A stretch of 64,000 nt of DNA from IMG/VR virus record IMGVR_UViG_3300050343_000163; one strand, written 5' to 3'. Numbering within the stretch: position 1 is the first letter of the stretch; the number at the start of each line of letters is the position of its first letter. Origin of the DNA: a virus. Below the pieces are notes generated by a model, which saw nothing but the letters and a program-made list of their open reading frames with translations, ran no database searches and was not told the DNA's origin. Positions 5,475 to 42,389 of the stretch are shown piece by piece. Both the position numbers and the translations under genes were made by a program.

Positions 5475-5481
5475 TATTTAG
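5475..5481 (-). promoter_or_regulatory. Late promoter variant CTAAATA
   Basis: Plus strand tatttag at the end of the giant fibre gene, followed by AGGAG and ATG 5449. Confidence 0.6.
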
Positions 5482-25000: not shown

Positions 25001-28000
25001 TTCATTAGTTGCACTAGAAGTAAATCTAAATGTTAGTTCACCAGTAGTGAAGTTTAATTCTTCTGCATCTTCATCATAAGATACAGTATCAACATCTCCA
25101 GACCATGTAGCATTTTGTGTTGGAGGATTGCCAGCAGGAATAATAATCAAACCAGATGCATTACCATATTCATCTGTAGTAATTGTTCCATTAAATGCAG
25201 ATAGTGAGTTACCAGCAATGCCAGTATATCTCAAATCAGGATTGACCCAACGACTAATATCTCTTCCTTCTAAGAACACATAGATTTTAGTGTTGGGTTT
25301 CATTCTACCAATTTTAAATTTAACAGGAAGACTTCTAGTATAGAAAGCTAAAGATGTAGAAACAATGTTATCACCAACAATTTTAGTCTGTACACCTTTT
25401 CCTACCTCATTATTTTGAGGACTAATATTAGAAGAACTACCAACCGATGCTGATGTTACAGAAGTAGATGCAATTTGAGAATTAACACCACCTAAAGAAT
25501 TAATTGATGTAAATGTCGAAGATGCTCCAACCCAATTGACTACAAAAGAATTAAAGAGACTGGAGAAACTCTCTTTTACATTTTCTTTAGCTAGGAAAAT
25601 ATTAAAGAGATCTGTGTTTGTATCAACAACTACAGGTTCTTCTGTTTGATCATACCATTGATCAATAGCAGGAGAAAGATCACTATCACCAACATATTGA
25701 AGAACAACAAATGGATTTGGATTTAATTTTCCAGAAGCAAAACTATTTCCTAATAGAGATAGTGGAGAGTATGGTAGAGTTACCATATTACCAATTTTCT
25801 TATAACCAGAAACAGTTCTTTGATCTTCTCTAGTATTAACTTCTACGAGATTAATAGAATCTTCTTTTGCTTGTGGACGTAAGACACTTTGCTGACTGTC
25901 TACTGCACATCTGTAATCAAGAGAAGATAGATTGCCAACTCTATGTGCTTCAAAATTATCGACAAAGAATCCAGACTTAAATCTATCAAGTCCAATCTCA
26001 TCCTTAACTTGCATGTTAAGAGCTTGCTGTTCTAAGATGCTGAGTGTAGTATAATACTCAAGACGCTCAATACGCTTCTCCAATTTACCAATGTCACGCA
26101 TTGTGTAACGACGGTTATCAACTGGAGTAATCCTTACATCCTTACTGGTCTTTGTGAATGCAGGAATATGTGCATAGAAAAGAGGCACAGCATCTTCAAT
26201 AGGATCTGGTTTGGATGGGTTGAGTGAAGAGTTACCTTCTTTGATGATAAAGTTTCCATTCTGATCTAAGAAGATACCATCAATACGATCCAAGTATTGT
26301 TTCTGACTGAAAGAGAATGTAAACTCTAGATTTATATCAGGAGCAGGACTACTTGCAATAATAGCACCAGAACCAGCAAAGGATCCTTGAGTTCGTTCTA
26401 ATATTGCAGTATCAAGGAAACCAGGAATAATAGCAGTGGTATCTACTTTTGGTCTAAAATCAATAACATTTTTGAGTTCTGTAATACCAAGAACTGAAGA
26501 ATTGAAGGAAGGAACTTCATCTTCAGCAACACCTGCATCATGCAGATAGCTATCGATTGTACAGAAATCACCTTGTGAATGCTCAAAGTAATCAAAAGCA
26601 ATTACAAGTTGACCAGTTGTTTCTTCAAAACCAGGTTTTAGAACAATACGAGAAACATCATAGATTGTATCTCTCTGACCATCATCAAATGTATATCTTG
26701 ATGTAACATCAGTACCAGAAATTAGATTACCAGCAGTATCAATCTGCGGTGGTTGAGAAGAAGTTCCCTCATAAACATATCTAAGTTTAAATGCATCAGA
26801 GTATGATAGAATTTCTACAACTTCTGTATCATAGTCTGTTCCTCTTAGAGGTACAACACGGTCACCAGCAGATGTAACTGTAATTCTCTTATTTCTAACT
26901 ACAGTCTTAAGTCTTGGTTTTGCGTTAGATACTTCTAAAGTTGCAGTCAACTTAAGTTTAGGGAATGTTCCATTAGCAGGAATAGTACCAAAGTATGTTG
27001 TTGGTAACTGTAAACTAATACTACCAGAAGTAAGACCACTGGATGTATCAGTAGAAGAAGTAATCTCTACATCATCTTCTTCTAAAAAGATAATATCACC
27101 CTTAACAATATCAGGTGCATCACCAGGATCAATAACAGTAATAATTAAATTTTCTTCACTGAATGCAGCAAACCTTTGTGTTCCAAATGGTAATTGTGCA
27201 GCAAAAGTAATAACACCACCACCAGAAGATGCAGTAGTTACAAAATCTCTACGGAAGAAATATTTGATCTTGGTGTCATCGCCACCAGCAGAAACTTGAG
27301 AAATTTGCTTGCTTCCAGTAGAAAACAGAAGTGTGCCACTTGTAGAATTGTCTACCTTTGGACGTAACCTTACAATACTTGCATTAGTAACAGAACCTGG
27401 TAAAGCTGTGTCTAGATAAATTCTAGATTTATATGCTCCCTCTTGTTGTGTAGCAAATTGTACAATTGCACGAACTAAGTTGTTGTCATCGTCAGAGAAT
27501 TGAATTAGATCTCCTTGTTGTACATCAGTAGATGCATCAGCACTAAAACTAGTAGACTCAACAAAAGTAGAACCCTGAGTACCAAAGAATGTATAATTTG
27601 TTACAGTTTTAATTTGTGAATACTTTTGACTGTTAATTACAACATCTGCAGAGAAACTATTTGCATTTCCTGAACCATAGGAACAACCAAGAGACTTGAC
27701 ATTCTGTGGAGTGTAAGTAGTTACTGTATCTCTATAAAGAACTGGAACAATAGCAGCAGCTGAATTTGGAGCTCCAGAAGCATCTGGATTCTTAGCTGTT
27801 ACAGCTGGTGGTTGTGCATACTCTACACCAACAGCAGATCTATTGCTAATCGCTGCTTTATAAATTTTTCCATCAACACTCTTTAATAATTCAATTTTAG
27901 AATTATCATATTCTAATCCATTAATTAAAAGTGTTACACCATCTGCATATCCTAAACCTCTATTCTGCACAACAAAATGTGAGATAGTATTTTCTTTAGC

Positions 28001-30181
28001 AATTCTTACAGTATTACCATCTTCATCTCTAATTGTTTCACCAGGTAAAAATCTACCAGATAATGTTGTTACAAACAGAATAGTTCCTGTAGTGTATACA
28101 CCTGAAGGTGTTCCTTCTACAACACCATAAGCTCCACTGTCTACACCAAAAACATACTTACCTTCATCATATCCAGCTGGAGTTGTCTCAATAATAATCT
28201 TGGTGAAGAATTGTGGGTCGAAATATGAAATTCCAAACGTTGTATTGTATGCATTAGTTCCAGCAGCTAAACGACCTTTGGAAAGAACAATATCAGAATC
28301 TGAATTAAAACCTGAACCTCTTTCTTTCAAGAAGAAATTATTGGGTTTTACTTTACCAATAATAGGAGTAATAGTGTTGCTGTAATCTACAATAAAACCA
28401 AATTCAGCACCTCCCGATGCAGCATCCCCTTCAGTTAAATAAATGTTTCTCTTCTGCTCGGTATCAGATAGATCATATTCTAATAGCAGTTGTTCTAATT
28501 CGTTTTTAGGACCAAATACAGTTAGTTCTAAGAACTGAACTGATTCGGATGCATTAATAAGTGGTTTGTTTGTAGTAGCAAATGAAAGAGTTTTAAATGA
28601 TCCAATAGCAGTTGGTGTACCTACATCACTTCTAGTTTTGATATAGAATAATTCACCAAACTGAGTTTGAAAAGTTGAATCAGTTACAGATCCAATAAGA
28701 GTAGTTGGACTTGTAATCTGTAAGGTGATAGTTTTAATACCATCATTTGCAGAGAAGAATTTTCCTCTCCTATCAATTGTTTGTCTATGATCTGTTGTAA
28801 GTTCTGTGTTATTAAGACCAATAGAACCGTCATTAAACGATGAATATAAAAATACATCAGGATATGCAGTAAGTTCAGATCCTTCTTTGTTTAAAGGAAC
28901 ACTACCATATACGTTTGTAATACAATAAGAAGGTAAACCTCTAGATTTTAGAGTTACATTATCAGAAGAAAGACTTTCTCTAGCTTTATTGATTTCTAGA
29001 TACTTAGTTTCTTTATTGACAATCTCATAACCTTTAATGTATGCTTTACCAGGACCTACACTAGCAATCATCTTTCTAGCAGATGTTCCAGCATCATATC
29101 CGTTGTATAGACCAAATTCGTCTACAGCATAGAAACCTTTGTTCTTATCCTTTTGTGCCCACTCTCTAATATCAACAGAGAAGTTGTCAACAACATAATT
29201 ACCAGATTCATCAAATGTTCTACGTGCTAGAGTTTGCTCTAGAACACTAAAGTCTGTAGATGAAACTTTGCTTTGTACTTGTCCTCTAGAAACAGTGAGG
29301 AGTTGAATGAAATTTTTATCAGTAATTGCATTTAGCGCAAACTCTTTTAACTGTAAAGAGATTTTTAATCTATGTGCGCCTGGTGCAGTATAGTTAGAAG
29401 AACCAATTGCATTATCATATAGAGATGCATCTTCCTCAGGAGTTACAATCTCTTCTTTAATTGTAAAACCAATTTTTGCAGATGGTTTATTATAATATTC
29501 ATCAATAACTAATAGTTCTTGATTACAACGAACAAAGTAACCATTAACAAAGTAAATACCTTCTTCTACTTTAACAGCAGAACCGTAACCCATTGCAGGA
29601 CTTTCTAAAGAAGTAGTCTCTTCTGTGTCTGGATTTGTTACTTGAATACTAGTTGGTAGAACACTACCATCTGTACCAACAACTAGAAGCGGTGTGTTAA
29701 CACCATCAACAACTTCTAGAGTTTCACCTTGGCGGAAGGTTGGCTCTGTGTTGGAACTACCACTATTAATGTAATTTACATATAATGTATCAGCGGAAGA
29801 TTCTGTTGCTAAAGTTGTTGCGAGAATAGTAGCTTTAACACCAGAAGTTAAACCAATTAGTTGTTGACCAATTAGTTGTGAAATATCATATTTCTTATAA
29901 ACAATATCGTCTCCTTCCGAGACCGCAACCTCAGAAACAGACGATAATTTTACGTAATCTAATTTTGTATTAAGACCTACTTCGCCAGGTATGACAAGTT
30001 CACCTTGTTTAAAGGCATACTTGCCAAAGCTTTCAACCTGATTCTGTAGAATAGATTGAACCTGCGTTAATTCTCTGCCTTGAATCGAATAACCTGGACG
30101 GAAAAGAATCTTATAGAAATTCTTGTTCGCATCAAAGTCTTCGTAGTAAGGACTTACATTAAGGTTCGTCTTTTGAGGCAT
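22094..30181 (-). CDS. vrlC: VrlC-like (DUF4815) large virion structural protein (2695 aa)
   Basis: MPQKTNLNVSPYYEDFD...FRPGYSIQGRELTQVQSILQNQ, DEIGLDRFKSGFFVDNF and PLAQTF motifs, ending P.IQDIRAVA. Confidence 0.85.
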   Translation of the reverse strand: MPQKTNLNVSPYYEDFDANKNFYKILFRPGYSIQGRELTQVQSILQNQVESFGKYAFKQGELVIPGEVGLNTKLDYVKLSSVSEVAVSEGDDIVYKKYDISQLIGQQLIGLTSGVKATILATTLATESSADTLYVNYINSGSSNTEPTFRQGETLEVVDGVNTPLLVVGTDGSVLPTSIQVTNPDTEETTSLESPAMGYGSAVKVEEGIYFVNGYFVRCNQELLVIDEYYNKPSAKIGFTIKEEIVTPEEDASLYDNAIGSSNYTAPGAHRLKISLQLKEFALNAITDKNFIQLLTVSRGQVQSKVSSTDFSVLEQTLARRTFDESGNYVVDNFSVDIREWAQKDKNKGFYAVDEFGLYNGYDAGTSARKMIASVGPGKAYIKGYEIVNKETKYLEINKARESLSSDNVTLKSRGLPSYCITNVYGSVPLNKEGSELTAYPDVFLYSSFNDGSIGLNNTELTTDHRQTIDRRGKFFSANDGIKTITLQITSPTTLIGSVTDSTFQTQFGELFYIKTRSDVGTPTAIGSFKTLSFATTNKPLINASESVQFLELTVFGPKNELEQLLLEYDLSDTEQKRNIYLTEGDAASGGAEFGFIVDYSNTITPIIGKVKPNNFFLKERGSGFNSDSDIVLSKGRLAAGTNAYNTTFGISYFDPQFFTKIIIETTPAGYDEGKYVFGVDSGAYGVVEGTPSGVYTTGTILFVTTLSGRFLPGETIRDEDGNTVRIAKENTISHFVVQNRGLGYADGVTLLINGLEYDNSKIELLKSVDGKIYKAAISNRSAVGVEYAQPPAVTAKNPDASGAPNSAAAIVPVLYRDTVTTYTPQNVKSLGCSYGSGNANSFSADVVINSQKYSQIKTVTNYTFFGTQGSTFVESTSFSADASTDVQQGDLIQFSDDDNNLVRAIVQFATQQEGAYKSRIYLDTALPGSVTNASIVRLRPKVDNSTSGTLLFSTGSKQISQVSAGGDDTKIKYFFRRDFVTTASSGGGVITFAAQLPFGTQRFAAFSEENLIITVIDPGDAPDIVKGDIIFLEEDDVEITSSTDTSSGLTSGSISLQLPTTYFGTIPANGTFPKLKLTATLEVSNAKPRLKTVVRNKRITVTSAGDRVVPLRGTDYDTEVVEILSYSDAFKLRYVYEGTSSQPPQIDTAGNLISGTDVTSRYTFDDGQRDTIYDVSRIVLKPGFEETTGQLVIAFDYFEHSQGDFCTIDSYLHDAGVAEDEVPSFNSSVLGITELKNVIDFRPKVDTTAIIPGFLDTAILERTQGSFAGSGAIIASSPAPDINLEFTFSFSQKQYLDRIDGIFLDQNGNFIIKEGNSSLNPSKPDPIEDAVPLFYAHIPAFTKTSKDVRITPVDNRRYTMRDIGKLEKRIERLEYYTTLSILEQQALNMQVKDEIGLDRFKSGFFVDNFEAHRVGNLSSLDYRCAVDSQQSVLRPQAKEDSINLVEVNTREDQRTVSGYKKIGNMVTLPYSPLSLLGNSFASGKLNPNPFVVLQYVGDSDLSPAIDQWYDQTEEPVVVDTNTDLFNIFLAKENVKESFSSLFNSFVVNWVGASSTFTSINSLGGVNSQIASTSVTSASVGSSSNISPQNNEVGKGVQTKIVGDNIVSTSLAFYTRSLPVKFKIGRMKPNTKIYVFLEGRDISRWVNPDLRYTGIAGNSLSAFNGTITTDEYGNASGLIIIPAGNPPTQNATWSGDVDTVSYDEDAEELNFTTGELTFRFTSSATNESKLGVDSYTEIKYYATGILPENPSSIVSTKPSIFKSNEGVQFIESNTDNPIRPNPLAQTFKIENLDGGCFVTGLDLYFSKKSTNIPVKTYITNVDAEKPAKNIIPGSEKTLSPNTFIKCFASGNMSVTQGENVTGASSAASGPILKIFDKNNVELVATASGKYSLTNEQVYTVVLSNHNGKSFRPNEDLTIPSVTLANATNATDFVLAIAKDSGKLSDIRVTNTGLNYDSAILTIESPQLPGGSTATARIEVSGGKIYNTEISLSGFGYTEAPSVVIKGVGNGAGGCEIQTFIEIDTPAVRMGVATDQTGVTQSTTPTHFAFDYPVYLQNNTEYALIVETDSIDYELWSSKLGDTDIATSTVITTQPSLGSVYRSQNTESWTEDIFEDLKFTMYRAQFDTTRPAELLVKNKGLGYELLDQNPFETNASANTNSSSKLFKNNNSIVKVNHRDHSFEDTGGSYVFYRTALETGGITSSVLNSTLFQVSNSGIDSYNIISSSQAAGNSIGGGSAVYASTNRKYETLYPQVSYLSFTGTTLSTEVKTTDVVPVDSTTTNYTSYSQPDYEKTFLNEPHYFTNQKFIASNINETLNNLSRSLTYKMTLSSTVSHLSPIIDLSSATVKTVSNRIENATGQEDRFGRRDQVIEFYPVYQFNLAGNGGTDLQDNQTIKGSTTKAVGTIARVVGQVVYVRVKTSQFFQKGETVTLGNQLGLSAVTVDSNPTQVLTTIADAATIVARNPSVMLETYDNIITGKATIWNSQTQKLTLRVDANPINNNFTDRIIDSALYNRNAVVADQIADIFRVGDFVKYPNQPDEEKSYLEVGKVMYTNGLDFVGEDTSKNGSAVAKYITKEVSITSPATAIDVHLLANVKDISNLEVFYKFKKASSQENFDDIDWIYFNKKGEPDTYEIATSENTISGIVEKQSAYQDLKYTASNLPEYSSFAIKIVMKGVDPAYVPKIQDIRAVAAF

Positions 30182-32114: not shown

Positions 32115-35100
32115 TTATGTAATTGCGAACGGAATCAACTCATCCCCGTTTGATATTGAGTTACTACCTCTTATTAGAGTGCATCCATCAAAGGTATTAG
32201 CAGTCTTAGATGCATATTGAATTACTGATCCACTCGAAGTGAATAGGTAACCAGCATTATCAAAGTATGCAGTATTTAGCGCAGCAATGCTGGTAGGTAT
32301 CGTACCAACAGTGGTAGTTGTTGTAACTGGTTGTTGGATTGAAGGAGGTGCAAGATTAAATTTATCACCAGCAGATGTATATTGAGATTTTCTTCTCTTA
32401 GTAAAATCATCAAGAGTTAAACCACCAAAGAACCTTGATACTTCTTCAATAGTCATACCAGATACTCCCATGCCATCATCAAAAATGCCATCAAAGTGAC
32501 CGATAGTATATCCAACGTTAGTGATAGCATAGTTTCCAATATACCCACTATCAGTAGTAAAGAGTGTGTTTCTAACTAGTTGCTCATTTCCATTTCTTTG
32601 AGTGACATAATATTTGTCTGCTGCGGAAACAAGGAATACACCAGAACCAACTCTTTGTGCAATTGGATTAGTCAAGAATGCAGTTTCTTGATATTTGTCA
32701 ACTACACCACCTGGTGGAGGAGTAATAACAACCTCAGTAGCTTCTCTTGTTACTGACATTACAGAGGCAGGAGAAATCTGTCTCTGTACTCTCCTTTCAA
32801 ATCCACCTGCAGTAGATGATGCACTCACCATACTAACATCAGATTCAGATTGGATAGAAGCAACAGCAGCAGATACAACTGCTATATCTTCAATCTGTCT
32901 TAGATATGCACCAGCAGCCCAGAATTGTTCTGTGGTGTTATCATAACCTCTAATGACTTGTAAGAATCTATCATTGATTTTTCTATTATAGAATACAAGT
33001 TCATTACCAATCATTAGTTTGCCATTAGGAGCAAACTTAGTTGTATCAGGAATGTATACAATACTGTCACCAATTTCCAGATCAACATTCAAGTATGCAG
33101 CATTCTCAAAGTAATTGGTATTACTGATTGCATTATTAGGAATTTCTACTTGAACTGTAGTAGTAATTGCTTTAGAAACAGTTGAAATAGAATTTGTAGT
33201 TATAATATCCTGCAATTCTGCAGATACTACTGTTCCACCAGCATATACATCTATGACTTTAACATCATCAGCTGATGTTTCTTCTGTTGAGAAGAATTCA
33301 ATATAATCTCGTTTTGGATCTAAAGCACCACCAATAGAGAATACCTCAACTTCCTTGAGATCAAATTCTCTTTCAATAACAATCTCGGCATCACCTGCAA
33401 CTTCTACTTGTACAGAACTAATACCAGTAATAGCAGAAAGACCAGACTCATCAATTTCACTGATAACAGATGTAGATGTCAATCCACCACTTTCAACATA
33501 TGGGTTAATACCAATGTTGATTAGTGAAACACCAATGTCTCTTTCTTTGAGAATATCAAATCTTCTGGTTGTAATAACCTTAGGTGTGGTAGTATAACCA
33601 GAACCACCATCGATTAGATCGACACTGATTACCTGACCTTTACTTACAAGAACGTTAGCTCTTGCACCACCACCATTACCATCCAGTGACTCAAACTTAA
33701 GAACTGGTGGTGTATAATATTGATATGCAGTTGGTTGTGTGAGTGGATCATAACTGCGTTGATTCCATGTTAAAGATATTACAGATCCATTTTCAATAGT
33801 TGCTACTACAGATAAACCTTCACCTCTCGTAATTCCAGTATAAGTCTCAATTGAGACTGTACCAAAAATATCATCAGTAGTTGCTTCTCCACTTCTACCA
33901 TCTTTACTGGTAGCTTCTGTAGGAAGTCTCTTAATATTTCTAAATCCCTCTTCACCTTCTACTCTGATCTTATCATTGTTAGCAAGATATACAAATGGTG
34001 CTTTATATGTTTTGCCATAGAATGTTCCAGACCACTGTCCGTTATCATCTTTGAGTAGTTTTCTATTTGCTTCGTCTTTCTTGAAGGTTAGTGTTTGATT
34101 ACTAATGTCTCCATCAGCAATGACATATGTTCGATCATAATATCCCTTAACAGTAAAGGTAAAGTCTAAACCGCTTTCTATGACAGGGTTTTGACACTTA
34201 AGTTCAAATGTAACATTGTTGCCTGTTTTGATTGGATTCTTAAGTTCACCAATAACATTATATGTTCCATTAGCTCTTTGTTGCCAACAATGAATAGGTG
34301 TTCCAATTGCATCACCCATCCAACCATATGCTAGTAAGTTATCTAGAATAGGTGTGGAAGTTGTGAAAGATAATGTTCCTTGTGCAAAATATGTATCAGG
34401 AGCAAAATCATATATGTTAAGAACCTGTCCAACATCTCTACCATAAAGATATCTGATATCAACGTTATGTTCTTTCTTAATAGGACTAGCAAATGTAATA
34501 TTAGGACCAGATACAGTATATGCTTTTCCTTTTACTTGTAGAATACCATCTAAGAAAACATACATGCTGTCTTCAGATTCAATACTCTGTACGGTGTAAT
34601 CTTCTACATCTAAAATTAAGAAGGGACCATTTCTAATACCGTCTACCAAATTAAAGTCGATAGTGAGTCTCTTATAATTACCAACTCCAATACCAACTAC
34701 TTTTTCAACAGCAGTTGGTTCACCAATAGATTTTGCACCTAGATCTTGGTCCCAAATAGGAGCTACGTCAAATTTAACTTTGTTAGGAATTACAGTTCTA
34801 TCAATCCAATAAGCATCCTGCAATGGATAGTTATCAGTAAACTTAGGTCTTTGTAATATAGCATTAATAGTAACAAATAGATCTTCATCTTCTTCTGTGT
34901 TTACAGGAGTATTATCATCCCAATACAATTCAAATTCTTTGTTTTCACCATCAATATAATCTGGAAGTGATCTTGTTACAGATTCTTCTTTAATAACATC
35001 ATCTAAGTTATCAAATAATGAATCCATTGCAGAAATTACAATTGTGCATTCTTCTACAGGAAGTAAAGGATCACCAAGGATATTATAGTTAGAGTAACTT

Positions 35101-38100
35101 AAATCTTTTGTCCAGTTACCAGCCTTATTAGAATTTTGCTTTGTTTTCTCTACAAGTCCTCTACCTTCTGTTAGGATAGTATTAACAATATCATGATAGG
35201 TGTTTAATGTGCTTTCTACTTCTGCACATACAGGAGAGATTGAGTCGATCAATACATTGGGATCTGTACCAGGCAATTGATTTCTCATTGCTTGAATTGC
35301 TAGATCTCTAGTATATTCAAATGTCGATATAGTTTCAGTTAATTGACCAGAGATGTAATATAACTCTTCACCATATGGATAATCCTTTTGCTGATAGTAA
35401 AGCTGTGCTGCCTCAACAATTTTTTCATTTCCACCAAATTTAAGATGGTAGACATATGCGTCTAGAATAAGACCGATGTCTCTACCACACTTAGTAGCAA
35501 TAGATCCCCAGTTCAATGCAGGATATTGTGCTTGTGCCCAAGTTAGTGATTCTGATATGATATATGATCTGTTGAGTGCAATGAGTTGTCCTGCTTTATA
35601 GAACATACCAATGCTTTGACCACTCCAAGAGAATGCTGCTTGTGTAGTGCCAGAGAAAGATACAGGTGTTGTGACAGTTACGCCAGGTGGTACAGTAAAA
35701 GTATTGCCAGGAGCAACTGCACCAGTATTTGTGGCAATAGATCCAGTGGTTGCTGTGCCACTTAGTAAAGTGGTTCCACTAGGAGCACCACCACCTCCAC
35801 CAGAGTTAGCTAGTGCTGCATTGTTTAATGTAATCTGAGTATCACTGTCAATAGATAGAATTTTTGTTCCTACAGGGAATGCTCTACCAGAACTTACAAA
35901 TAAACCAATAGCAAGATTTTTAGTGCTACTAACTGTCATTGTAGTAGACCCTTGGACATAACTGATGTTTACATCAATCCAATCCCAGTTTCTGATAGCA
36001 AGTTTTGCCAATCTAGTTGCATATTCAAAAATAGCAATAGATTTTGTTTTATTGTTTTGAATATAAAGGTATTCATCATCAGAATTAAAGATAGCAGAAT
36101 AATCAATTGTTTTTACATTTCCACCAAATCTTAAATCATGCTGATATGCATCTAAGATAGCTCGTATGTTTCTTTCATAGTCATCTTGCTTAGTCGCCCA
36201 ATCTAAAGATCCATAAGTTGATTTACCATATCCAATAGTTTCATTAATAATGAAGTCAACATTTCTCTCAATTTGATTTGCAGCATCAATCCATGTGCCA
36301 CCACGTTGGAAAATGTTTCTTAACTTTTTGAGATAACGAGTATTGTATTGTGCATCCTTGAATTGGAATACTTTACCATAGAAAGTAACACCTTTATAAT
36401 CAGAACCAAATTTAACTCCATCTCCTAAAGGTGGAGTAGAGAATGTAATCTGATCACCAGAGATTGTATATGCAACACCTGGTTCTTGAATCACACCGTC
36501 TAAAGTGATAATAGTACCATATGTTGATGATAGAGTAAATGGATTGCCACCAACTAATACTTGGAACTGTGTAGTTCCTTGTAATCTACCATCTGTATCA
36601 AAGTATCCATCAAATGCTGATGCAAGAGATAGTTCAAATGTACGAACTTCGTTGAATAGAAATTCACTTGGAGCAGCAGTACCAACCGCTTTACGAATTC
36701 TTTGATTCTCAACTGTTTGTACAGTTTGAGTAACAATTCTACTTGTGTTCTCAACAGTAATTTTATTCTTTGCTGGATCCCATAATTGAATAACACTAAA
36801 GTGTGATGCCTTTGGCATCTCAACTGGCATCTCAGAACTTGCAGTAGCTTCTACATCTACTTGTCCAAATAACTTAAATCCTGCAGGGTGTGTAGTGGAT
36901 TTAATAAGGTCACGCCATTCTTCAATAGATGTCTTAGATTTAACAACATAAGAATAATCTTGATAGAAAGAACTATCATGAATCTTCTGATTAGATACAC
37001 CTAACTTACCTTTGTCTGATGTGTAGTATCCTAAGTTGTCATAGAAACTAGAAATATTTTCTTGGAAGGTAGAAACAAATACTTTACTAACAATTGCATC
37101 TATTGGGAATCTTAAAGACTCAATAGAAATATTCTCACGAATAATACCTTGTACATTTGCAAGTTTAAGTAAGTTAGAACTAAATCTCCATTCTGTAACA
37201 GTTGCTCTGAATACTTCTACATTATTAATTTTTTGAATTACAGTTTCACCAATACTAAAGTTACCATTGATGTTTCTAACAGCAACAATGTAGTTTGAAC
37301 TGAAAGTAGAAGATACAGTTTTGTCTAGATGGAATGCTCCACCGTTTCTGGTAATATTAACACTCTTAGGAACACCAATAGATGTGCTCTCTGCATATGC
37401 TTCTACATCACCCTCAATAATAATGATTTCAGGTGCAAATGTATATCCTTTACCAATTTTGTCTACTGTAATAGAGGCAATTTCACCATTTCTAGAAATA
37501 ACATTAAACTTAGCATCAGAACCATCACCATTAGTAATAAAGACTTTTGGGTTTACATAATTAGAACCTTTCTCGGTAATCTCTACACCAGTGATAGTTT
37601 TTGTTGCAACATCAAATTTAACTGTAGCTTCTGCTCTATAACTTGCAGTTGGGTCTACACCAATAATAACAGGTACTTTCTTATAGTTAAGTCCTAGGTT
37701 TATAATCTGTGCGGTATTAATTTTACCGATAGCGAACTGACCAGTAGTGGTATAAGAAATAGATCCAGAACCATCCCAAAGAGGAATGCTGTTAATATCA
37801 TAAACAAAACGATTTGGTGTAACATAATTAAGAATTTTAGTTCCCTGTAAAGGATCTGTGATAATCTTGAAAAATGCGTTTTCTGAATCAACTACATTCT
37901 TTTTGTCAAAGTAATAGAAGTTAGTAAAATCAGTTCCTCTCTTTGTCTGATAGTTATTATCAGTTAGTCTAGAACCAAATCCAAATTTAACATCAGTAAA
38001 TGCACCAGCATTACCAGGAAGAATAGTAGATTCTATTTTTTCCTCAGTAATCAAATTGTAGTTATTACTTGGACTGATATCAAAGTAAGTCCCAATAAGA

Positions 38101-41100
38101 CTAGAATGAGACGTGTCAAACTTATACTTGTAGAATTCTTGTAAATCAATATTTGGATTAGGTACAAATGTACTATTGTCTTCTGAGAACTCAAAATTAT
38201 AAACAATATTTTCTACAGACTTAAGTGATACCAGTCTTTGTGGATTGCTACTATCAAAGAAACTGGAACTTAATACTACTTCATTAGCTGTAGACTTTAA
38301 AGTTCCATAATCATATACAATATTAATTTTATGAGTTACAGGATCATAAGATTGAATATATCCAGAATTATTACCAGTAAAGATCTGATAGTTATCAGCA
38401 AAATTATATTGTGCTTTATATAATTCTACTTCCTGTCCATCAAAGTGATCAACATCATCAGTTCCTTCTTGTCCTCTAGTTACATTTAGATTATTTCCAC
38501 TAATACCTTCAATCTTTAAAATTTCCTCGCCAACTTTAACCAGATCATTAACAGAGAACCCAAATGAACTTTTAACTGTAACTTTTGTACCACCAGCAGG
38601 AATACCAATGTGTCCAACATAGATTGTAAATCTTGCAGTAGATTGTGATGCGCCAGATCTTACCAGATCTTCATCTGCAACACTAAGATAATCTCCTTGT
38701 GCATATCCACTACCAGCATCTTGAATTTGAATGCCAGAAACTATGCCAGCGTCAGATACAGTGAATGTAGCAGTGGCACCAGTGCCAGATCCGCTAGTAA
38801 GAGCAACACTAGTGTAAGTGCCAGCAGTATAATCTGCTCCACCATTAAGAATTTCATAACGACCAATACCTGTAAAGTCAATTGTAGACTTATTACTAGG
38901 TGGTACAAGAATAGCTTCTTGATACAACCTCTTCCTTATATAATAGGTCTTAGTTTTGGTTACGTCATTAGGATTGATGTCAATTGTTACTTTATCTCCA
39001 ATTCCTAACCCATGAGGTTGTGCTGTTTCAATTAGAGCAACACTTTGATTAACTTCAAATGGTTCTAACCCATCACTGAGAGATGTTAGTCTTACAACTT
39101 TTGTACCAGAAGTATTGAATAGGTCATCTGATTGTAAGAAGTAATCGTCATTAACAATCCAAGTTCCCTCAGTAACTTTAATCTCAACTACGTTTTGACT
39201 GTTAGTTCCTTCTAACACTTCACCTTTAGCTACAGGTGCATTAACACCGTCAGTCAAACTTAGAGTAGCGCCTTTGGTATATGAACTTCTTTGATCTAAA
39301 AGAATAGTAAACGTTTTGATAGTTGCAGAGAATGTTCCCGTTTCATCAAAAGTACCATTGACATTTCTTAGTACAATAATGTTATCGTTCTTAACTGTAC
39401 CTACAATAGAACCAGATGCTCCTGAGGAGGGTTGGTTTAATGTATCATCAGCAAATAGATATGCACTTTGGATTGTCGTTAGTTTTACGACTCTATCTTC
39501 TTTACATTCTAAGTAGGAAACGTTCTTACCTTTCACGGAGTTTACGATAGATTCTACTTCAGAACCTTCTGTTCCTTTATTATCAAAATAAATTTGTGAG
39601 TTAATACTGAAGTTGGTAGATGAATCTACTACGCTGACTTCTTCTACATTTCCTTGCTTTACTTCTGCAATTTGAGCAATGACACCTTCGCCATTTCTCT
39701 GCATACCTGCTTGATAGAATCTTCTAGAATTCTTAGGAATATCATCTTGATTGATATTAGAATTGTAATTACTATCAACTGGTAGAGAATAGAAGTTCTC
39801 TCCTAAAATGTATGGATATTGCGGTACTTGATTGCTATCAATAGTAATGAAATAAGCATAAGTTCCTTTCGGAAAGTCGGGGGTAACTGTAAATCTTCCA
39901 TTGTTTTGATCTAGTGTTCCACTCTTGTGAGTGTATGTGTAATCATTAACAAACGTTCCCAGAGGATAATTTGTTAATGATGGACCATTAGAACGATTTC
40001 CATTAATACTGTAACCAGAAGTCATTCTCACAATTGATGATGTAGCATCTAGGGGATCCTGATGACCAAATGGACCGTATATTGGATTACCGTCGTAAGC
40101 GAATCCAATAATAGGAGAGTGAGTTTTTGTAGCGGGTTCAGTTCCTGCACTATTGATGTTGTCGCTGAGAGAAACACGTAAAGCTTTAGGATTGGCATTA
40201 TATCCATAACCGTATTCTAATACATTATTATAGTTTGCAAAGATATAACCGTATTCAGTATCTAATTCATTTTCTAATTTTTTAAATCTATTAAAGTTCC
40301 ATTCTTTAAGAAGAGGAATACCAGATGCACCATTACCAACTGGAATGACATCAACAATAACAGTAGCTTGATTATAGAAGTTACCTTCTGCAATTTTATC
40401 AAATCCTGTAATTATACCATCTGTATTAACAATAGAAATATATTCTGCAAATCTACCACGACCTGCTGCATCTCTAATTCTAATTAAAGGAGCAGATGAA
40501 TAGAATTCTCCAGCATTATTGATAACAAGACTAGTAACCTTGCCACCTGTTACAACAGCACTTACATCTGCATTACGACCAGAAGTGATAGTGATATCAG
40601 GAGTTCTTGGAAAAATGTCATCAGTATCAACAATGATACTTTCTACAACCTGACCAGCAAGAACTGCCCTAGCTTTGCTTGGAACTTGATCAATAAGAAC
40701 AAATGGAGGTGTTGAGTATCCAGTGCCTCTAGTATCAATCTTAATTTCTTCTAGTTTACCAAACCTAATACTTTCTGGATCTTTATGTCCATAGAAAGGT
40801 ACGCCATTTAAAGCAATACCAATATCTCTTTTGGGTGTTTTGTATGTTTCTGTAGTTCTAGTTGCTTGCTTTCTAATGATACGAAGCAGTTTCTGATCTA
40901 GTGTAGTTTCATTAACAGTAGACCCATCTAAGATCTTATGTGAAGGATAGCTAGAACTTGTGATATAATAATACTGTTCGTCTTCAAAGATCGCTGATAC
41001 ATTAGTAGAAACTTGATCTAAGGAAGATGCAACTGATGGAAGCGTAGGCACATCGACTGCAGTACCTGAACTTAACACCCATCTAGTTTGATTAGTACCA

Positions 41101-42389
41101 GTCTGAACAATCTTAGAGTCGGAAGTTTCAAATCCTGGATTTGAGATTTGAATCTTGTCCCCAATAGCAGAATATGGTTGTGCATCAGATGGTTGTAAGT
41201 TGTATACAACACCTAAGGTCAGTAAAACAACGCCAGAACCACTAATGGTTACTGGTTTGTACACTGAAGATCCTACTGCATGTTGAACAGCAGTCTGTGC
41301 CGTCCTTTCGTCAATTGTAAACTGTGTTACGTTCTTATTATCGAAAGTAATCGTCTCTTCACCAATTAATACTGATCCTGTCTTACCCCAACCGATAGTA
41401 GAGAATACATCAATTCTATCCCCCGAACTCGCAGTCCCTGACAGGGTTTTTTCAAGCTTAGTTTTAGTAGATACTTCAAATGCACCATTGACTGTCTCAG
41501 GTGCTAATACAATATTATAAATTACTTCATCATCTGATGTACCATCAGCATACACATTATCTACTGTTGAATCAGCATAACCATATTCTTCAGTAGAAGT
41601 CTGTACAATCTTTTTACCGATCAGATTCTTTACGTCTCCAGATACAACCTTACACTTAAGTGCATAAACGTTGATCCAATCTGCTTCGGACGATTTGTAT
41701 GTAAAATCTCTTGGTTTATATACTTCTGGTTTGTTATCTGCTGTTTTAGCAATAACAGTATTGAAAATAAACTTGATGGAACTTGTAGTTCCTTTAGCTT
41801 TGTAAAACTTCTGAATGTTTTTAATCAGAGTTCTCTTATCTACTTCACCCCTAAGATACTTTTGGGGGAAAGAACCTAGATACTGACTCTCGAAGTTTTT
41901 GACTAATGCATATAAGAAAAGGTTACTAATGTTATGAACCTTTTGTCCAGCATTATGAGATGCAGCAACCGTAGTGGTGAACGTGCTAGACTCATATAAG
42001 TCACCAAGCGATGTATTGCCACTTACGCCTCTAGAACACTCTCTTAACTCAGTGTCTGTTCTAGAACCATAGAAGATGATCTCGTCATCAATTTTTACAA
42101 ATCCGTTTCTTTTTGGAAAACTCGTTGCATTTTCCAATACAATTGTATCAGCACTACTAGAAATAGTAGTGTCCAAGATATTAAACTGTCTAAGAATATT
42201 TTGTTCATAATAATCAATGTCTGCATATTTTTGGATATTATTAATTATATCCAGTGTGCCACCTTGCACCTCCTGTTCTTCATAATACTTCTGAACGAAC
42301 TTACTAAAAAGTTCATATTCATCTGTAATAAAAGAAGGAAGCTGCGTCTCAATGAGAGTAGAAATTCTCTTAGTCTTTACAGCAGGCAT
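32115..42389 (-). CDS. gp7: Baseplate wedge initiator gp7, greatly enlarged (3424 aa)
   Basis: RISTLIETQLPSFI...FVQKYY, LIKNIQKFYKAKGT..SIKFIF and DSSFYQDYSYVVKS...HPAGFKLFG motifs. Lies between gp6 and gp8. Confidence 0.9.
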   Translation of the reverse strand: MPAVKTKRISTLIETQLPSFITDEYELFSKFVQKYYEEQEVQGGTLDIINNIQKYADIDYYEQNILRQFNILDTTISSSADTIVLENATSFPKRNGFVKIDDEIIFYGSRTDTELRECSRGVSGNTSLGDLYESSTFTTTVAASHNAGQKVHNISNLFLYALVKNFESQYLGSFPQKYLRGEVDKRTLIKNIQKFYKAKGTTSSIKFIFNTVIAKTADNKPEVYKPRDFTYKSSEADWINVYALKCKVVSGDVKNLIGKKIVQTSTEEYGYADSTVDNVYADGTSDDEVIYNIVLAPETVNGAFEVSTKTKLEKTLSGTASSGDRIDVFSTIGWGKTGSVLIGEETITFDNKNVTQFTIDERTAQTAVQHAVGSSVYKPVTISGSGVVLLTLGVVYNLQPSDAQPYSAIGDKIQISNPGFETSDSKIVQTGTNQTRWVLSSGTAVDVPTLPSVASSLDQVSTNVSAIFEDEQYYYITSSSYPSHKILDGSTVNETTLDQKLLRIIRKQATRTTETYKTPKRDIGIALNGVPFYGHKDPESIRFGKLEEIKIDTRGTGYSTPPFVLIDQVPSKARAVLAGQVVESIIVDTDDIFPRTPDITITSGRNADVSAVVTGGKVTSLVINNAGEFYSSAPLIRIRDAAGRGRFAEYISIVNTDGIITGFDKIAEGNFYNQATVIVDVIPVGNGASGIPLLKEWNFNRFKKLENELDTEYGYIFANYNNVLEYGYGYNANPKALRVSLSDNINSAGTEPATKTHSPIIGFAYDGNPIYGPFGHQDPLDATSSIVRMTSGYSINGNRSNGPSLTNYPLGTFVNDYTYTHKSGTLDQNNGRFTVTPDFPKGTYAYFITIDSNQVPQYPYILGENFYSLPVDSNYNSNINQDDIPKNSRRFYQAGMQRNGEGVIAQIAEVKQGNVEEVSVVDSSTNFSINSQIYFDNKGTEGSEVESIVNSVKGKNVSYLECKEDRVVKLTTIQSAYLFADDTLNQPSSGASGSIVGTVKNDNIIVLRNVNGTFDETGTFSATIKTFTILLDQRSSYTKGATLSLTDGVNAPVAKGEVLEGTNSQNVVEIKVTEGTWIVNDDYFLQSDDLFNTSGTKVVRLTSLSDGLEPFEVNQSVALIETAQPHGLGIGDKVTIDINPNDVTKTKTYYIRKRLYQEAILVPPSNKSTIDFTGIGRYEILNGGADYTAGTYTSVALTSGSGTGATATFTVSDAGIVSGIQIQDAGSGYAQGDYLSVADEDLVRSGASQSTARFTIYVGHIGIPAGGTKVTVKSSFGFSVNDLVKVGEEILKIEGISGNNLNVTRGQEGTDDVDHFDGQEVELYKAQYNFADNYQIFTGNNSGYIQSYDPVTHKINIVYDYGTLKSTANEVVLSSSFFDSSNPQRLVSLKSVENIVYNFEFSEDNSTFVPNPNIDLQEFYKYKFDTSHSSLIGTYFDISPSNNYNLITEEKIESTILPGNAGAFTDVKFGFGSRLTDNNYQTKRGTDFTNFYYFDKKNVVDSENAFFKIITDPLQGTKILNYVTPNRFVYDINSIPLWDGSGSISYTTTGQFAIGKINTAQIINLGLNYKKVPVIIGVDPTASYRAEATVKFDVATKTITGVEITEKGSNYVNPKVFITNGDGSDAKFNVISRNGEIASITVDKIGKGYTFAPEIIIIEGDVEAYAESTSIGVPKSVNITRNGGAFHLDKTVSSTFSSNYIVAVRNINGNFSIGETVIQKINNVEVFRATVTEWRFSSNLLKLANVQGIIRENISIESLRFPIDAIVSKVFVSTFQENISSFYDNLGYYTSDKGKLGVSNQKIHDSSFYQDYSYVVKSKTSIEEWRDLIKSTTHPAGFKLFGQVDVEATASSEMPVEMPKASHFSVIQLWDPAKNKITVENTSRIVTQTVQTVENQRIRKAVGTAAPSEFLFNEVRTFELSLASAFDGYFDTDGRLQGTTQFQVLVGGNPFTLSSTYGTIITLDGVIQEPGVAYTISGDQITFSTPPLGDGVKFGSDYKGVTFYGKVFQFKDAQYNTRYLKKLRNIFQRGGTWIDAANQIERNVDFIINETIGYGKSTYGSLDWATKQDDYERNIRAILDAYQHDLRFGGNVKTIDYSAIFNSDDEYLYIQNNKTKSIAIFEYATRLAKLAIRNWDWIDVNISYVQGSTTMTVSSTKNLAIGLFVSSGRAFPVGTKILSIDSDTQITLNNAALANSGGGGGAPSGTTLLSGTATTGSIATNTGAVAPGNTFTVPPGVTVTTPVSFSGTTQAAFSWSGQSIGMFYKAGQLIALNRSYIISESLTWAQAQYPALNWGSIATKCGRDIGLILDAYVYHLKFGGNEKIVEAAQLYYQQKDYPYGEELYYISGQLTETISTFEYTRDLAIQAMRNQLPGTDPNVLIDSISPVCAEVESTLNTYHDIVNTILTEGRGLVEKTKQNSNKAGNWTKDLSYSNYNILGDPLLPVEECTIVISAMDSLFDNLDDVIKEESVTRSLPDYIDGENKEFELYWDDNTPVNTEEDEDLFVTINAILQRPKFTDNYPLQDAYWIDRTVIPNKVKFDVAPIWDQDLGAKSIGEPTAVEKVVGIGVGNYKRLTIDFNLVDGIRNGPFLILDVEDYTVQSIESEDSMYVFLDGILQVKGKAYTVSGPNITFASPIKKEHNVDIRYLYGRDVGQVLNIYDFAPDTYFAQGTLSFTTSTPILDNLLAYGWMGDAIGTPIHCWQQRANGTYNVIGELKNPIKTGNNVTFELKCQNPVIESGLDFTFTVKGYYDRTYVIADGDISNQTLTFKKDEANRKLLKDDNGQWSGTFYGKTYKAPFVYLANNDKIRVEGEEGFRNIKRLPTEATSKDGRSGEATTDDIFGTVSIETYTGITRGEGLSVVATIENGSVISLTWNQRSYDPLTQPTAYQYYTPPVLKFESLDGNGGGARANVLVSKGQVISVDLIDGGSGYTTTPKVITTRRFDILKERDIGVSLINIGINPYVESGGLTSTSVISEIDESGLSAITGISSVQVEVAGDAEIVIEREFDLKEVEVFSIGGALDPKRDYIEFFSTEETSADDVKVIDVYAGGTVVSAELQDIITTNSISTVSKAITTTVQVEIPNNAISNTNYFENAAYLNVDLEIGDSIVYIPDTTKFAPNGKLMIGNELVFYNRKINDRFLQVIRGYDNTTEQFWAAGAYLRQIEDIAVVSAAVASIQSESDVSMVSASSTAGGFERRVQRQISPASVMSVTREATEVVITPPPGGVVDKYQETAFLTNPIAQRVGSGVFLVSAADKYYVTQRNGNEQLVRNTLFTTDSGYIGNYAITNVGYTIGHFDGIFDDGMGVSGMTIEEVSRFFGGLTLDDFTKRRKSQYTSAGDKFNLAPPSIQQPVTTTTTVGTIPTSIAALNTAYFDNAGYLFTSSGSVIQYASKTANTFDGCTLIRGSNSISNGDELIPFAIT

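What the first reader, a model, noticed from the sequence alone, without database searches (positions are those of the whole stretch)
34990..36293. Two nested phycobiliprotein-like domains in baseplate protein gp7
Seen: copy D has KCGRDIGLILDAYVYHLKFGGNEKIVE (Cys 35487-35489), which by my count shares 12 of 27 positions with the recalled phycocyanin-alpha [27 protein letters not shown]. Copy C (35985-36293, WIDAANQIERN...DYERNI...DLRFGGN) has Tyr in place of that Cys. Two helix-H-like segments follow (PVCAEVESTLNTYHDIV, Cys 35226-35228; EECTIVISAMDSLFDNL, Cys 35046-35048). The order C, D, H, H suggests D is inserted in the G-H loop of C. Inference: the same domain family as in the giant fibre has been grafted onto a core baseplate protein.
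Basis: partly seen in the sequence, partly recalled or inferred. Interest (0 to 1): 0.85.

Follow-up and report, generated by a model that had tools for sequence, protein, structure and literature searches.

The report
Phycobiliprotein-fold domains in cyanophage baseplate protein
A giant baseplate protein of a T4-like virus of marine cyanobacteria contains two domains, one nested inside the other, that are distant but real relatives of its host's light-harvesting pigment proteins; one keeps the pigment-attachment residues, so the virus particle may carry pigment, which nobody has yet tested.

Summary
Window 34990-36293 (minus strand) encodes residues 2033-2466 of a 3424-aa protein lying between gp6-like and gp8-like baseplate genes of a T4-like cyanomyovirus.

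- **Domain D (residues 2259-2407):** the AlphaFold2 model superposes on phycoerythrin and phycocyanin beta chains (Z 14.5-16.3, rmsd 2.0-2.2 A, 128-141 residues).
- **Domain C (residues 2033-2135):** folded alone, it matches only helices A-G of the same fold.
- **Last helix (2448-2465):**
- **Homology:** profile-profile comparison with real CpcA/CpcB gives P = 5e-8 for the family and 5e-6 for D.
- **Spread:** the family has 1022 representative clusters, up to 33 copies per protein, and in the phage collection occurs only in cyanophages. Over 1323 copies the C-x-R-D bilin-site motif is 97/93/99% conserved and is lost as a unit.

In this gene D keeps C-x-R-D (31 of 39 orthologues). C always has Tyr there. 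Both helix-H cysteines, which align with beta-Cys153, are invariant. Bilin binding is inferred, not shown.

Earlier AI notes of this scan report the same domain family in at least 34 other genomes. I found no paper describing it.

The parts
32115..42389 (-). 3424-aa gp7-position baseplate/virion structural protein that hosts the two domains
   Evidence: Single ORF. PHROG 4406 over its full length, E 0. PHROG 2885 'baseplate wedge subunit', 2e-209. Flanked by gp6-like (phrog_219) and gp8-like (phrog_438) genes.
35985..36293 (-). Domain C, helices A-G (residues 2033-2135). A degenerate phycobiliprotein-fold domain whose helix H lies 313 residues downstream.
   Evidence: HMM of D matches at 6.5e-20. 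hhalign against the family gives P 2.2e-19. Folded alone: pLDDT 78, and all top 50 PDB chains are phycobiliproteins, Z 8.7-9.4, chain residues about 25-147.
36177..36179 (-). Tyr2071 of C, at the position of the Cys82/84-type bilin cysteine. It is invariant Tyr in 35 of 35 orthologues; the Arg position varies and Asp is Asn or Asp.
35628..35984 (-). Beta-rich, Gly/Thr-rich module (residues 2136-2254) inserted after helix G of C, ahead of D
   Evidence: DSSP of the model shows strands at model residues 104-222, pLDDT 57-91.
35166..35615 (-). Domain D, complete phycobiliprotein-type globin core, helices A-H (residues 2259-2408)
   Evidence: VIA-align: model 227-375 against beta chains 33-172/177, Z 14.5-16.3, rmsd 2.0-2.2 A, 128-141 residues aligned. 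Foldseek TM 0.54-0.62 by target. hhalign against CpcA gives P 5.4e-6.
35478..35489 (-). C-G-R-D of D (Cys2301, Arg2303, Asp2304), aligned with Cys84-x-Arg86-Asp87 of phycocyanin alpha and Cys82-x-Arg-Asp of beta
   Evidence: HMM and hhalign alignments are in register. Kept in 31 of 39 orthologues. 97/93/99% conserved across 1323 family copies.
35226..35228 (-). Cys2388, N-cap of helix H of D. It aligns with beta-Cys153, the T-type lyase site. Invariant in 40 of 40.
   Evidence: C356 invariant. hhalign pairs it with the GDC cysteine of CpcB. The VIA end pairing 375 to 172 gives 356 to 153 if helix H is ungapped (inference).
35049..35165 (-). Conserved linker between helix H of D and helix H of C (residues 2409-2447). 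Nearly invariant N-K-x-G-N-W-T ... Y-S-N-Y-N-I.
   Evidence: conservation. (coil, pLDDT 50-62).
34995..35048 (-). Terminal helix (residues 2448-2465) = helix H of C, beginning with invariant Cys2448 (35046-35048)
   Evidence: Predicted helix 417-433, pLDDT 81-85. Adds 16.6 score units and extends C's alignment into the family's helix H; shuffled and reversed controls add about 1.5. Aligns with the GDC...YFD helix H of CpcB.

Best explanation
**Shown.** Residues 2033-2466 of the gp7-position baseplate protein are two phycobiliprotein (PBP)-fold globin domains arranged like a Russian doll. Helices A-G of C come first. They are followed by a beta-rich module, then the complete domain D (A-H), then a conserved linker, and last helix H of C. 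Both domains belong to a large, unnamed, cyanophage-only family of PBP relatives that is repeated up to 33 times in giant tail and baseplate proteins.

**Inferred.** The family keeps the PBP bilin site for its original use.
- In the infected cell, which is full of bilins and lyases, D receives a covalently bound bilin at Cys2301. Arg2303 and Asp2304 would hold the propionate and the pyrrole nitrogens, as in PBPs.
- The invariant helix-H cysteines (Cys2388 in D, Cys2448 in C) are the equivalents of beta-Cys153. That is the site served by T-type lyases, so they are candidate substrates of the phage's own CpeT-family protein.
- C has lost the Cys82-type site (invariant Tyr). At most it carries a helix-H bilin.

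The assembled baseplate would then display a few pigment molecules per wedge.

My odds: true PBP-fold homologue about 0.93; nested topology about 0.8; D chromophorylated in virions about 0.45-0.5. The confidence given for this explanation is for the whole statement, bilin included.
For: **Fold**
- D matches PBP beta chains at Z 14.5-16.3, rmsd 2.0-2.2 A, 128-141 of about 172 residues. All 50 top entries are PBPs or engineered derivatives.
- Foldseek's top hits are PBPs, TM 0.54-0.62.
- C alone gives Z 8.7-9.4, again all PBPs, covering helices A-G only.

**Sequence**
- Family against CpcA: P 4.8e-8 (probability 95%). D against CpcA: P 5.4e-6.
- 14 of 15 sub-threshold PDB profile hits are PBP alpha chains, aligned on Cys84.
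- PF00502 hits 2 of 35 orthologues at E 0.003.

**Nesting:** (tail helix test with controls; range).

**The site behaves as a functional unit**
- Over 1323 copies, Cys is 97%, Arg 93% and Asp 99% conserved.
- In the 42 copies without Cys, Arg falls to 40% and Asp to 64%. The fold-specific D63 and GGN stay at 93% and 83%.
- The gp7 lineages that lost Cys also lost R, D and mostly D58.

**Helix-H cysteines:** invariant in 40 of 40 orthologues and aligned with beta-Cys153.

**Host link**
- 337 of 50,697 phage records hold the family, and all are cyanophages.
- A CpeT-family gene is present in 5 of 5 cyanomyovirus genomes that carry the domain, including the closest isolate S-WAM2.
- Literature: CpcT-type lyases serve beta-Cys153, and only myocyanophages carry cpeT (PMC10452541).
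Against: - No chromophore has been observed. Everything about bilin is inference from conserved residues.
- The window's own sequence does not reach Pfam PF00502, and Foldseek E-values are only 0.03-0.17.
- The X-Y helices that PBPs use to pair alpha with beta are absent.
- The family has its own near-invariant Asp (+14 from Cys; 97%) and GGN, which PBPs lack. These could mean a different ligand. D has His at that Asp position.
- Eight of 39 gp7 orthologues lost C-x-R-D in D, and C never has it, so the Cys82-type site is dispensable for baseplate function.
- The helix-H Cys is present in only 43% of family copies.
- cpeT is not in this window, and its presence in this phage could not be checked.
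- To my knowledge, purified cyanomyovirus preparations have not been reported as coloured.
Confidence: 0.5

Rival explanations
1. Apo structural module. The domains descend from phycobiliproteins but now serve only as rigid helical spacers or decorations of the baseplate and fibres, with no chromophore. The conserved residues stabilise the fold or domain-domain contacts.
For: - C has lost the Cys site entirely, and 8 of 39 D orthologues lost it without losing the domain.
- The domains are used as repeated building blocks, up to 33 per protein. That is typical of structural repeats.
- No X-Y helices.
- No published report of pigmented virions in the library searched.
Against: - A purely structural role does not explain 97/93/99% conservation of exactly the three bilin-contacting residues over 1323 highly diverged copies.
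- It does not explain their loss as a unit while the rest of helix E is kept.
- It does not explain the restriction to phages of bilin-making hosts.
Confidence: 0.33
2. The conserved cysteines serve another chemistry, such as a disulfide, a metal site, or a non-bilin ligand held by Cys/Arg/Asp together with the family-specific Asp(+14) and GGN.
For: - The family-specific Asp63 (97%) and Asn69 (84%) are not PBP features.
- The two invariant helix-H cysteines of this gp7 could in principle pair with each other.
Against: - Cys49 has no constant partner. The helix-H Cys is absent from 241 of 426 copies that have Cys49.
- By established PBP structures, the Cys82 and Cys153 sites lie tens of angstroms apart within a domain.
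- Phage proteins fold in a reducing cytoplasm.
Confidence: 0.1
3. Chance or convergent resemblance: a generic helical bundle that happens to carry a C-x-R-D string.
For: - Single-sequence searches find nothing.
- Z-scores of helical bundles can be inflated (note).
- The Atlas shape search of C alone returned unrelated folds.
Against: - Three independent kinds of evidence agree on the same family and the same register: profile-profile P 5e-8, structure Z 16 at rmsd 2 A over the whole core, and motif alignment on both bilin cysteines.
- The top 50 chains are all PBPs, for D and for C.
Confidence: 0.03

Closest known systems
Phycobiliprotein beta subunits (CpcB, CpeB, cryptophyte PE/PC beta; Pfam PF00502)
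   Same: Globin-type helices A-H superpose at rmsd about 2 A. There is a Cys-x-Arg-Asp on helix E at the Cys82 position. There is a second Cys at the N-cap of helix H at the Cys153 position.
   Different: - 15-20% identity.
- No X-Y helices, so no alpha-beta pairing surface.
- Embedded in a 3424-aa virion protein, and one copy is split by a 313-residue insertion in the G-H loop.
- Family-specific Asp(+14) and GGN.
- No chromophore shown.
- Below the Pfam threshold.
C-phycocyanin alpha subunit (CpcA)
   Same: Best sequence match. The K-C-x-R-D-I-G ... G-G stretch shares 12 of 27 residues with D. hhalign P is 5.4e-6 for D and 4.8e-8 for the family.
   Different: Alpha has no helix-H cysteine. 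Structure searches rank beta chains first.
ApcE (core-membrane linker) phycobiliprotein domain (from my own knowledge, not tested here)
   Same: A PBP domain fused into a large multidomain protein, interrupted by a loop insertion, and able to attach bilin without a lyase.
   Different: It is a cytoplasmic phycobilisome component. Its insertion is in a different loop. It is not a virion protein.
BBAGs, bilin biosynthesis-associated globins of heterotrophic bacteria (Rockwell et al. 2023, PMC10151467)
   Same: Phycobiliprotein paralogues that bind bilin outside any phycobilisome.
   Different: They are free-standing cellular proteins encoded in bilin-reductase gene clusters. Their relationship to the phage family was not tested, because no BBAG sequence was at hand.
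T4 gp7 baseplate wedge initiator
   Same: Same gene position between gp6 and gp8. Relatives are annotated gp7. There is a sub-threshold PF23786 match at residues 1800-1841.
   Different: More than three times longer. No sequence match to any solved baseplate chain. It carries a YHYH domain and PBP-fold domains, neither of which came up in any T4 gp7-related match here (their absence from T4 gp7 is from my own knowledge and was not tested).

Membership tests
Phycobiliprotein (Pfam PF00502) | Globin-like fold with helices A, B, E, F, G, H | tested here: met
   D: Z 14.5-16.3, rmsd 2.0-2.2 A over chain residues 33-172/177. C: helices A-G, Z about 9, plus a helix H supplied by the terminal helix.
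Phycobiliprotein (Pfam PF00502) | Score above the Pfam gathering threshold | tested here: not met
   No PF00502 hit for the window's sequence. Only 2 of 35 orthologues hit, at E 0.003. Remote homology shows only in profile-profile comparison (P 5e-6 to 5e-8).
Phycobiliprotein (Pfam PF00502) | Cys82/84-x-Arg-Asp bilin attachment site on helix E | tested here: met
   Met for D (Cys2301, Arg2303, Asp2304, aligned in register). Not met for C (invariant Tyr2071).
Phycobiliprotein (Pfam PF00502) | N-terminal X-Y helical hairpin for alpha-beta heterodimer formation | tested here: not met
   Structural alignments start at chain residue 25-33. The 24 residues before C are low-confidence, with no hairpin. 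D is preceded by a beta module.
Phycobiliprotein (Pfam PF00502) | Covalently bound bilin chromophore | not testable with these tools
   Needs virion or recombinant protein spectroscopy and mass spectrometry.
Cyanophage PBP-fold repeat family (unnamed; 1022 representative clusters) | Helix-E signature K-C-x-R-D-[VIT]-G ... D-A ... D-L-x-x-G-G-N | tested here: met
   D matches except His for the Asp(+14). C matches except Tyr for Cys and Asn for Asp. hhalign against the family gives P 1.3e-32 for D and 2.2e-19 for C.
T4-type gp7 baseplate wedge initiator | Gene between gp6 and gp8 in the baseplate wedge operon | tested here: met
   phrog_219 (gp6-like, E 1.7e-204) upstream and phrog_438 (gp8-like, E 7.2e-176) downstream. 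Same order in S-WAM2, with annotated gp25, gp6 and gp8.
T4-type gp7 baseplate wedge initiator | Sequence similarity to gp7 / baseplate wedge domain | tested here: inconclusive
   PF23786 gives 24.7 bits against a cut-off of 27. No PDB chain at E <= 0.01. PHROG 2885 'baseplate wedge subunit' gives 2e-209.

The most novel reading that the evidence does not exclude
The virion itself is a photoreceptor. Bilins attached to the phycobiliprotein-fold domains of gp7 and the giant fibres are loaded in the infected cell, with the phage's own CpeT-type lyase serving the helix-H cysteines. They absorb light and gate fibre or baseplate conformation. This would be the long-sought cause of light-dependent adsorption of cyanomyoviruses such as S-PM2 and P-HM1/P-HM2, all of which carry the domain. 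It would also be the real purpose of the phage cpeT, pebS, pcyA and ho1 genes.
Probability: 0.2. Interest if true: 0.95.

Novelty: new variant of a known kind. Interest (0 to 1): 0.8.

Why it matters
Phycobiliproteins are known as soluble antenna proteins of cyanobacteria and algae. Finding their fold, with the bilin-attachment residues conserved, as a building block of phage baseplates and fibres is unexpected. I found no paper describing it.

It makes two old puzzles directly testable.

1. **Light-dependent adsorption.** Some cyanomyoviruses adsorb only in the light, independently of host photosynthesis. The authors themselves suggested light-sensitive tail fibres (PMC6628666, citing Jia et al. 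2010). P-HM1, P-HM2 and S-PM2 carry these domains.
2. **The phage cpeT gene.** Myocyanophages, and only they, carry a T-type bilin lyase gene (PMC10452541). From my own recollection of Gasper et al. 2017, which I could not read here, its host substrate has been unclear.

This locus adds three things:
- the domain sits in a core baseplate protein;
- a clear case of domain-in-domain nesting in the G-H loop;
- the observation that in gp7 the beta-Cys153-type cysteines are the invariant ones, not the Cys82-type site.

Tried and rejected
- **Single-sequence searches found nothing useful.** Pfam on the 434-aa region gave only a spurious PNGase_A_C hit. phmmer against the PDB gave CFTR and Fab noise. 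megablast against phages gave no match.
- **ESM Atlas shape search with C alone** returned unrelated membrane and other folds at TM <= 0.5. The service is approximate, so I do not count this against the fold.
- **Whole-protein phmmer against the PDB** found no hit, so the domains could not be mapped onto the T4 baseplate structure.
- **No whole genome is held for the window**. cpeT is not in the window (tblastn). It is also not on five related IMG/VR contigs, which are only 26-39% complete and so uninformative.
- **FDBR and heme oxygenase** are present in only 1 of 5 domain-bearing phage genomes. Phage-made bilin is therefore not a general requirement; host bilin would have to serve.
- **Gasper et al. 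2017 (PMC5336146)** is not held.
- **Not done:** I did not run complex prediction, because an enzyme-substrate pair is a poor use of it and CpeT is not in the window. I could not inspect model coordinates, so helix-helix contacts and the bilin pocket were not examined.


Full report
**1. The observation**

The region 34990-36293 lies on the minus strand inside one open reading frame, 32115-42389, of 3424 codons. It encodes residues 2033-2466.

It occurs letter for letter in a Thermosynechococcus CpcA that I fetched from a genome collection (L121:4861-5346), and it shares 12 of 27 positions with the helix-E segment of copy D.

**2. The host gene**

- The upstream 598-aa ORF is a gp6-type baseplate wedge subunit (phrog_219, E 1.7e-204).
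- The downstream 604-aa ORF is gp8-type (phrog_438, E 7.2e-176).
- The closest isolate, Synechococcus phage S-WAM2 (58% identity in this region), has the order gp25, gp6, a 3446-aa 'structural protein', gp8.
- P-HM1 and P-HM2 annotate their counterpart as 'gp7: baseplate wedge initiator'.

Direct similarity to T4 gp7 is not demonstrable. PF23786 scores 24.7 bits against a cut-off of 27, and no PDB chain matches. I therefore call it the gp7-position baseplate protein. The window is from a T4-like cyanomyovirus with no close match among isolates.

**3. Fold**

I aligned 39 orthologous segments from IMG/VR contigs (54-96% identity). I then folded the 434-residue region with AlphaFold2, without templates (pLDDT 78, pTM 0.71).

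- Foldseek against the PDB put phycobiliproteins in nearly every top place: TM by target 0.54-0.62, about 160 columns, E 0.03-0.17.
- VIA-align gave Z 14.5-16.3, rmsd 2.0-2.2 A, with 128-141 residues aligned. Model residues 227-375 matched residues 33-172/177 of phycoerythrin, phycocyanin and cryptophyte beta chains. All 50 listed entries are phycobiliproteins or engineered derivatives.

This is above the tool's own caution level for helical bundles (about 13), and it covers the entire globin core A-H. D is thus a complete phycobiliprotein-type domain lacking only the X-Y hairpin.

**4. Sequence homology**

- A profile of D orthologues searched against all PDB sequences returned 15 sub-threshold hits (E 0.3-1.8). 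Fourteen were phycobiliprotein alpha chains, aligned so that the Cys of K-C-x-R-D falls on Cys84.
- Pfam PF00502 matched 2 of 35 orthologues (best E 0.0028).
- For a proper test I collected 71 CpcA-type and 60 CpcB-type proteins from cyanobacterial genomes and ran hhalign:

| Query | Target | P |
|---|---|---|
| D orthologues | CpcA | 5.4e-6 |
| 150 full-length copies of the wider phage family | CpcA | 4.8e-8 (probability 95%) |
| same 150 copies | CpcA + CpcB | 9e-8 over 98 columns |
| same 150 copies | CpcB alone | 5.6e-4 over 121 columns |

- C alone has no significant direct match to phycobiliproteins (P 0.03-0.4). It is tied to the family at P 2.2e-19.

**5. Nesting**

C (residues 2033-2135) matches the D profile only over positions 8-119, that is helices A-G.

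Folded alone with 24 upstream residues (pLDDT 78), its 50 best PDB chains are again all phycobiliproteins or derivatives. Z is 8.7-9.4, and the match stops at chain residue about 147-149, the end of helix G.

The last helix of the region (model 417-433) was tested as the missing helix H:
- Appending columns 408-434 to C raised the hhalign score against the family from 106.6 to 123.2. The alignment extended from family columns 15-116 to 15-154.
- The same columns shuffled or reversed gave 108.1 and no extension.
- D's own helix H appended to C gave 134.3.

D has its own helix H directly after its helix G. The terminal helix is therefore best read as helix H of C.

The order is: C(A-G), beta-rich module (2136-2254), D(A-H), a highly conserved 39-residue linker, C(H). 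I could not read contacts from the model, so this remains a strongly supported inference.

**6. The family**

A profile search of 1.84 billion representative proteins found 1022 clusters at E <= 0.001. These are mostly proteins of 1000-7000 residues, with up to 33 matched stretches each.

In the phage collection a typical copy from this window's giant fibre hits 337 of 50,697 records. All of them are Synechococcus or Prochlorococcus phages, 'Cyanophage' records, or one 'Marine' record (167 records with the gp7 segment). BFVD structure hits are named only 'tail protein', 'structural protein' and the like.

Over 1323 copies in the 150 best proteins:

| Position | Residue | Conservation |
|---|---|---|
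| Bilin-site Cys | Cys | 97% |
| Cys + 2 | Arg | 93% |
| Cys + 3 | Asp | 99% |
| Cys + 14 (family-specific) | Asp | 97% |
| G-G-N motif | Asn | 84% |
| Helix-H N-cap | Cys | 43% |

In the 42 copies without the Cys, Arg drops to 40% and Asp to 64%. The family-specific Asp and Asn stay at 93% and 83%. The three residues that contact bilin in phycobiliproteins thus behave as one selected unit, separable from the fold.

**7. This gene's two copies are atypical**

- **C:** an invariant Tyr replaces the Cys, the Arg position is variable, and the Asp position is Asn or Asp.
- **D:** keeps C-G-R-D but has His at the family's Asp(+14).
- **D orthologues:** among 39, 31 keep C-x-R-D. One lineage has Y-Y-P-L-Q-M-R, one has Y-P-R-Q-I-R, one has S-L-T-E-R-L, and one keeps only the Cys.
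- **Helix-H cysteines:** Cys2388 and Cys2448 are invariant in 40 of 40 sequences.

hhalign pairs each helix-H cysteine with the Cys of the G-D-C...Y-F-D helix H of CpcB (these individual alignments are weak, P about 0.01-0.02). The structural end pairing 375 to 172 places Cys356 of the model on beta-153 if helix H is ungapped.

**8. Mechanism**

*Shown:* fold, homology, motif conservation and host restriction.

*Inferred:* the domains are chromophorylated in the infected cell. T-type lyases attach bilin at beta-Cys153, and only myocyanophages carry cpeT (PMC10452541). A CpeT-family gene is present in all five domain-bearing genomes I checked, including S-WAM2, S-PM2, P-HM1 and Syn9. A bilin reductase and a heme oxygenase are in only one of the five. 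An unchecked note on another window of this genome reports pebS and pcyA.

*What the pigment would do is open.* The most interesting possibility is light gating of adsorption. P-HM1 and P-HM2 do not adsorb in the dark. For S-PM2 this is independent of host photosynthesis, and light-sensitive tail fibres have been suggested (PMC6628666). All three phages carry the domain. Photoprotection, or a purely structural role, remain possible.

**9. Against**

- No pigment has been seen.
- The Cys82-type site is dispensable in gp7.
- The X-Y helices are missing.
- The family-specific Asp and GGN could point to another ligand.
- cpeT is not in this window, and no whole genome is held for it.

**10. Novelty and earlier notes**

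Full-text searches for cyanophage with 'phycobiliprotein-like', 'globin-like', bilin plus virion, or CpeT plus tail fibre found no description of this domain.

Earlier AI notes of this scan report the same family in at least 34 other genomes, with the same reading. I treated these as leads only. Everything above was tested here.

What is demonstrated is a new, divergent, virion-borne branch of a known fold. A pigmented, light-sensing virion would be categorically new, but it is unproven.

Noticed in passing
window 12852-13235, 12513-12842 and 10662-10976 (minus strand), inside ORF 5478-15956: The 3492-aa giant tail-fibre ORF (phrog_5342) has three matches to the same phycobiliprotein-fold profile (E 4e-14, 3e-17, 9e-4). 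The third covers only the G-H part about 500 residues downstream, which suggests another domain split by a large insertion.
   Followed up: partly
window 39822-40208 (minus strand), residues 728-856 of the same protein: A YHYH domain (PF14240, E 3.7e-29) lies inside the gp7-position protein. It is shared with several other cyanophage structural-protein PHROGs.
   Followed up: no
window 35049-35165 (minus strand): The linker between the two H helices is nearly invariant (N-K-x-G-N-W-T ... Y-S-N-Y-N-I) yet is modelled as low-confidence coil. It may be a contact surface for another baseplate component or for the beta module.
   Followed up: no
loci L097, L100, L103, L106, L107 (IMG/VR orthologues): The lineage that replaced K-C-x-R-D in D by Y-Y-P-L-Q-M-R also gained a 12-residue insertion and a new cysteine about 24 residues before the helix-H cysteine. 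This may be a relocated site.
   Followed up: no
proteins P0003-P0005: Metagenomic proteins of 4800-6400 residues carry 31-33 matched stretches of this domain. In them the fold is the main building block of whole fibres.
   Followed up: partly
L243 (S-PM2 record AJ630128.1, 168605-170120): The record's feature table lists 14 tRNA genes lying inside the CDS S-PM2p218 and bearing its locus tag. This looks like an annotation or coordinate-table artefact.
   Followed up: no
window 16504-21891 and 22094-30181 (minus strand): Two further giant ORFs (1795 and 2695 aa; phrog_6005 and phrog_358) lie between gp8 and the fibre. Neither matched the phycobiliprotein-fold profile.
   Followed up: partly
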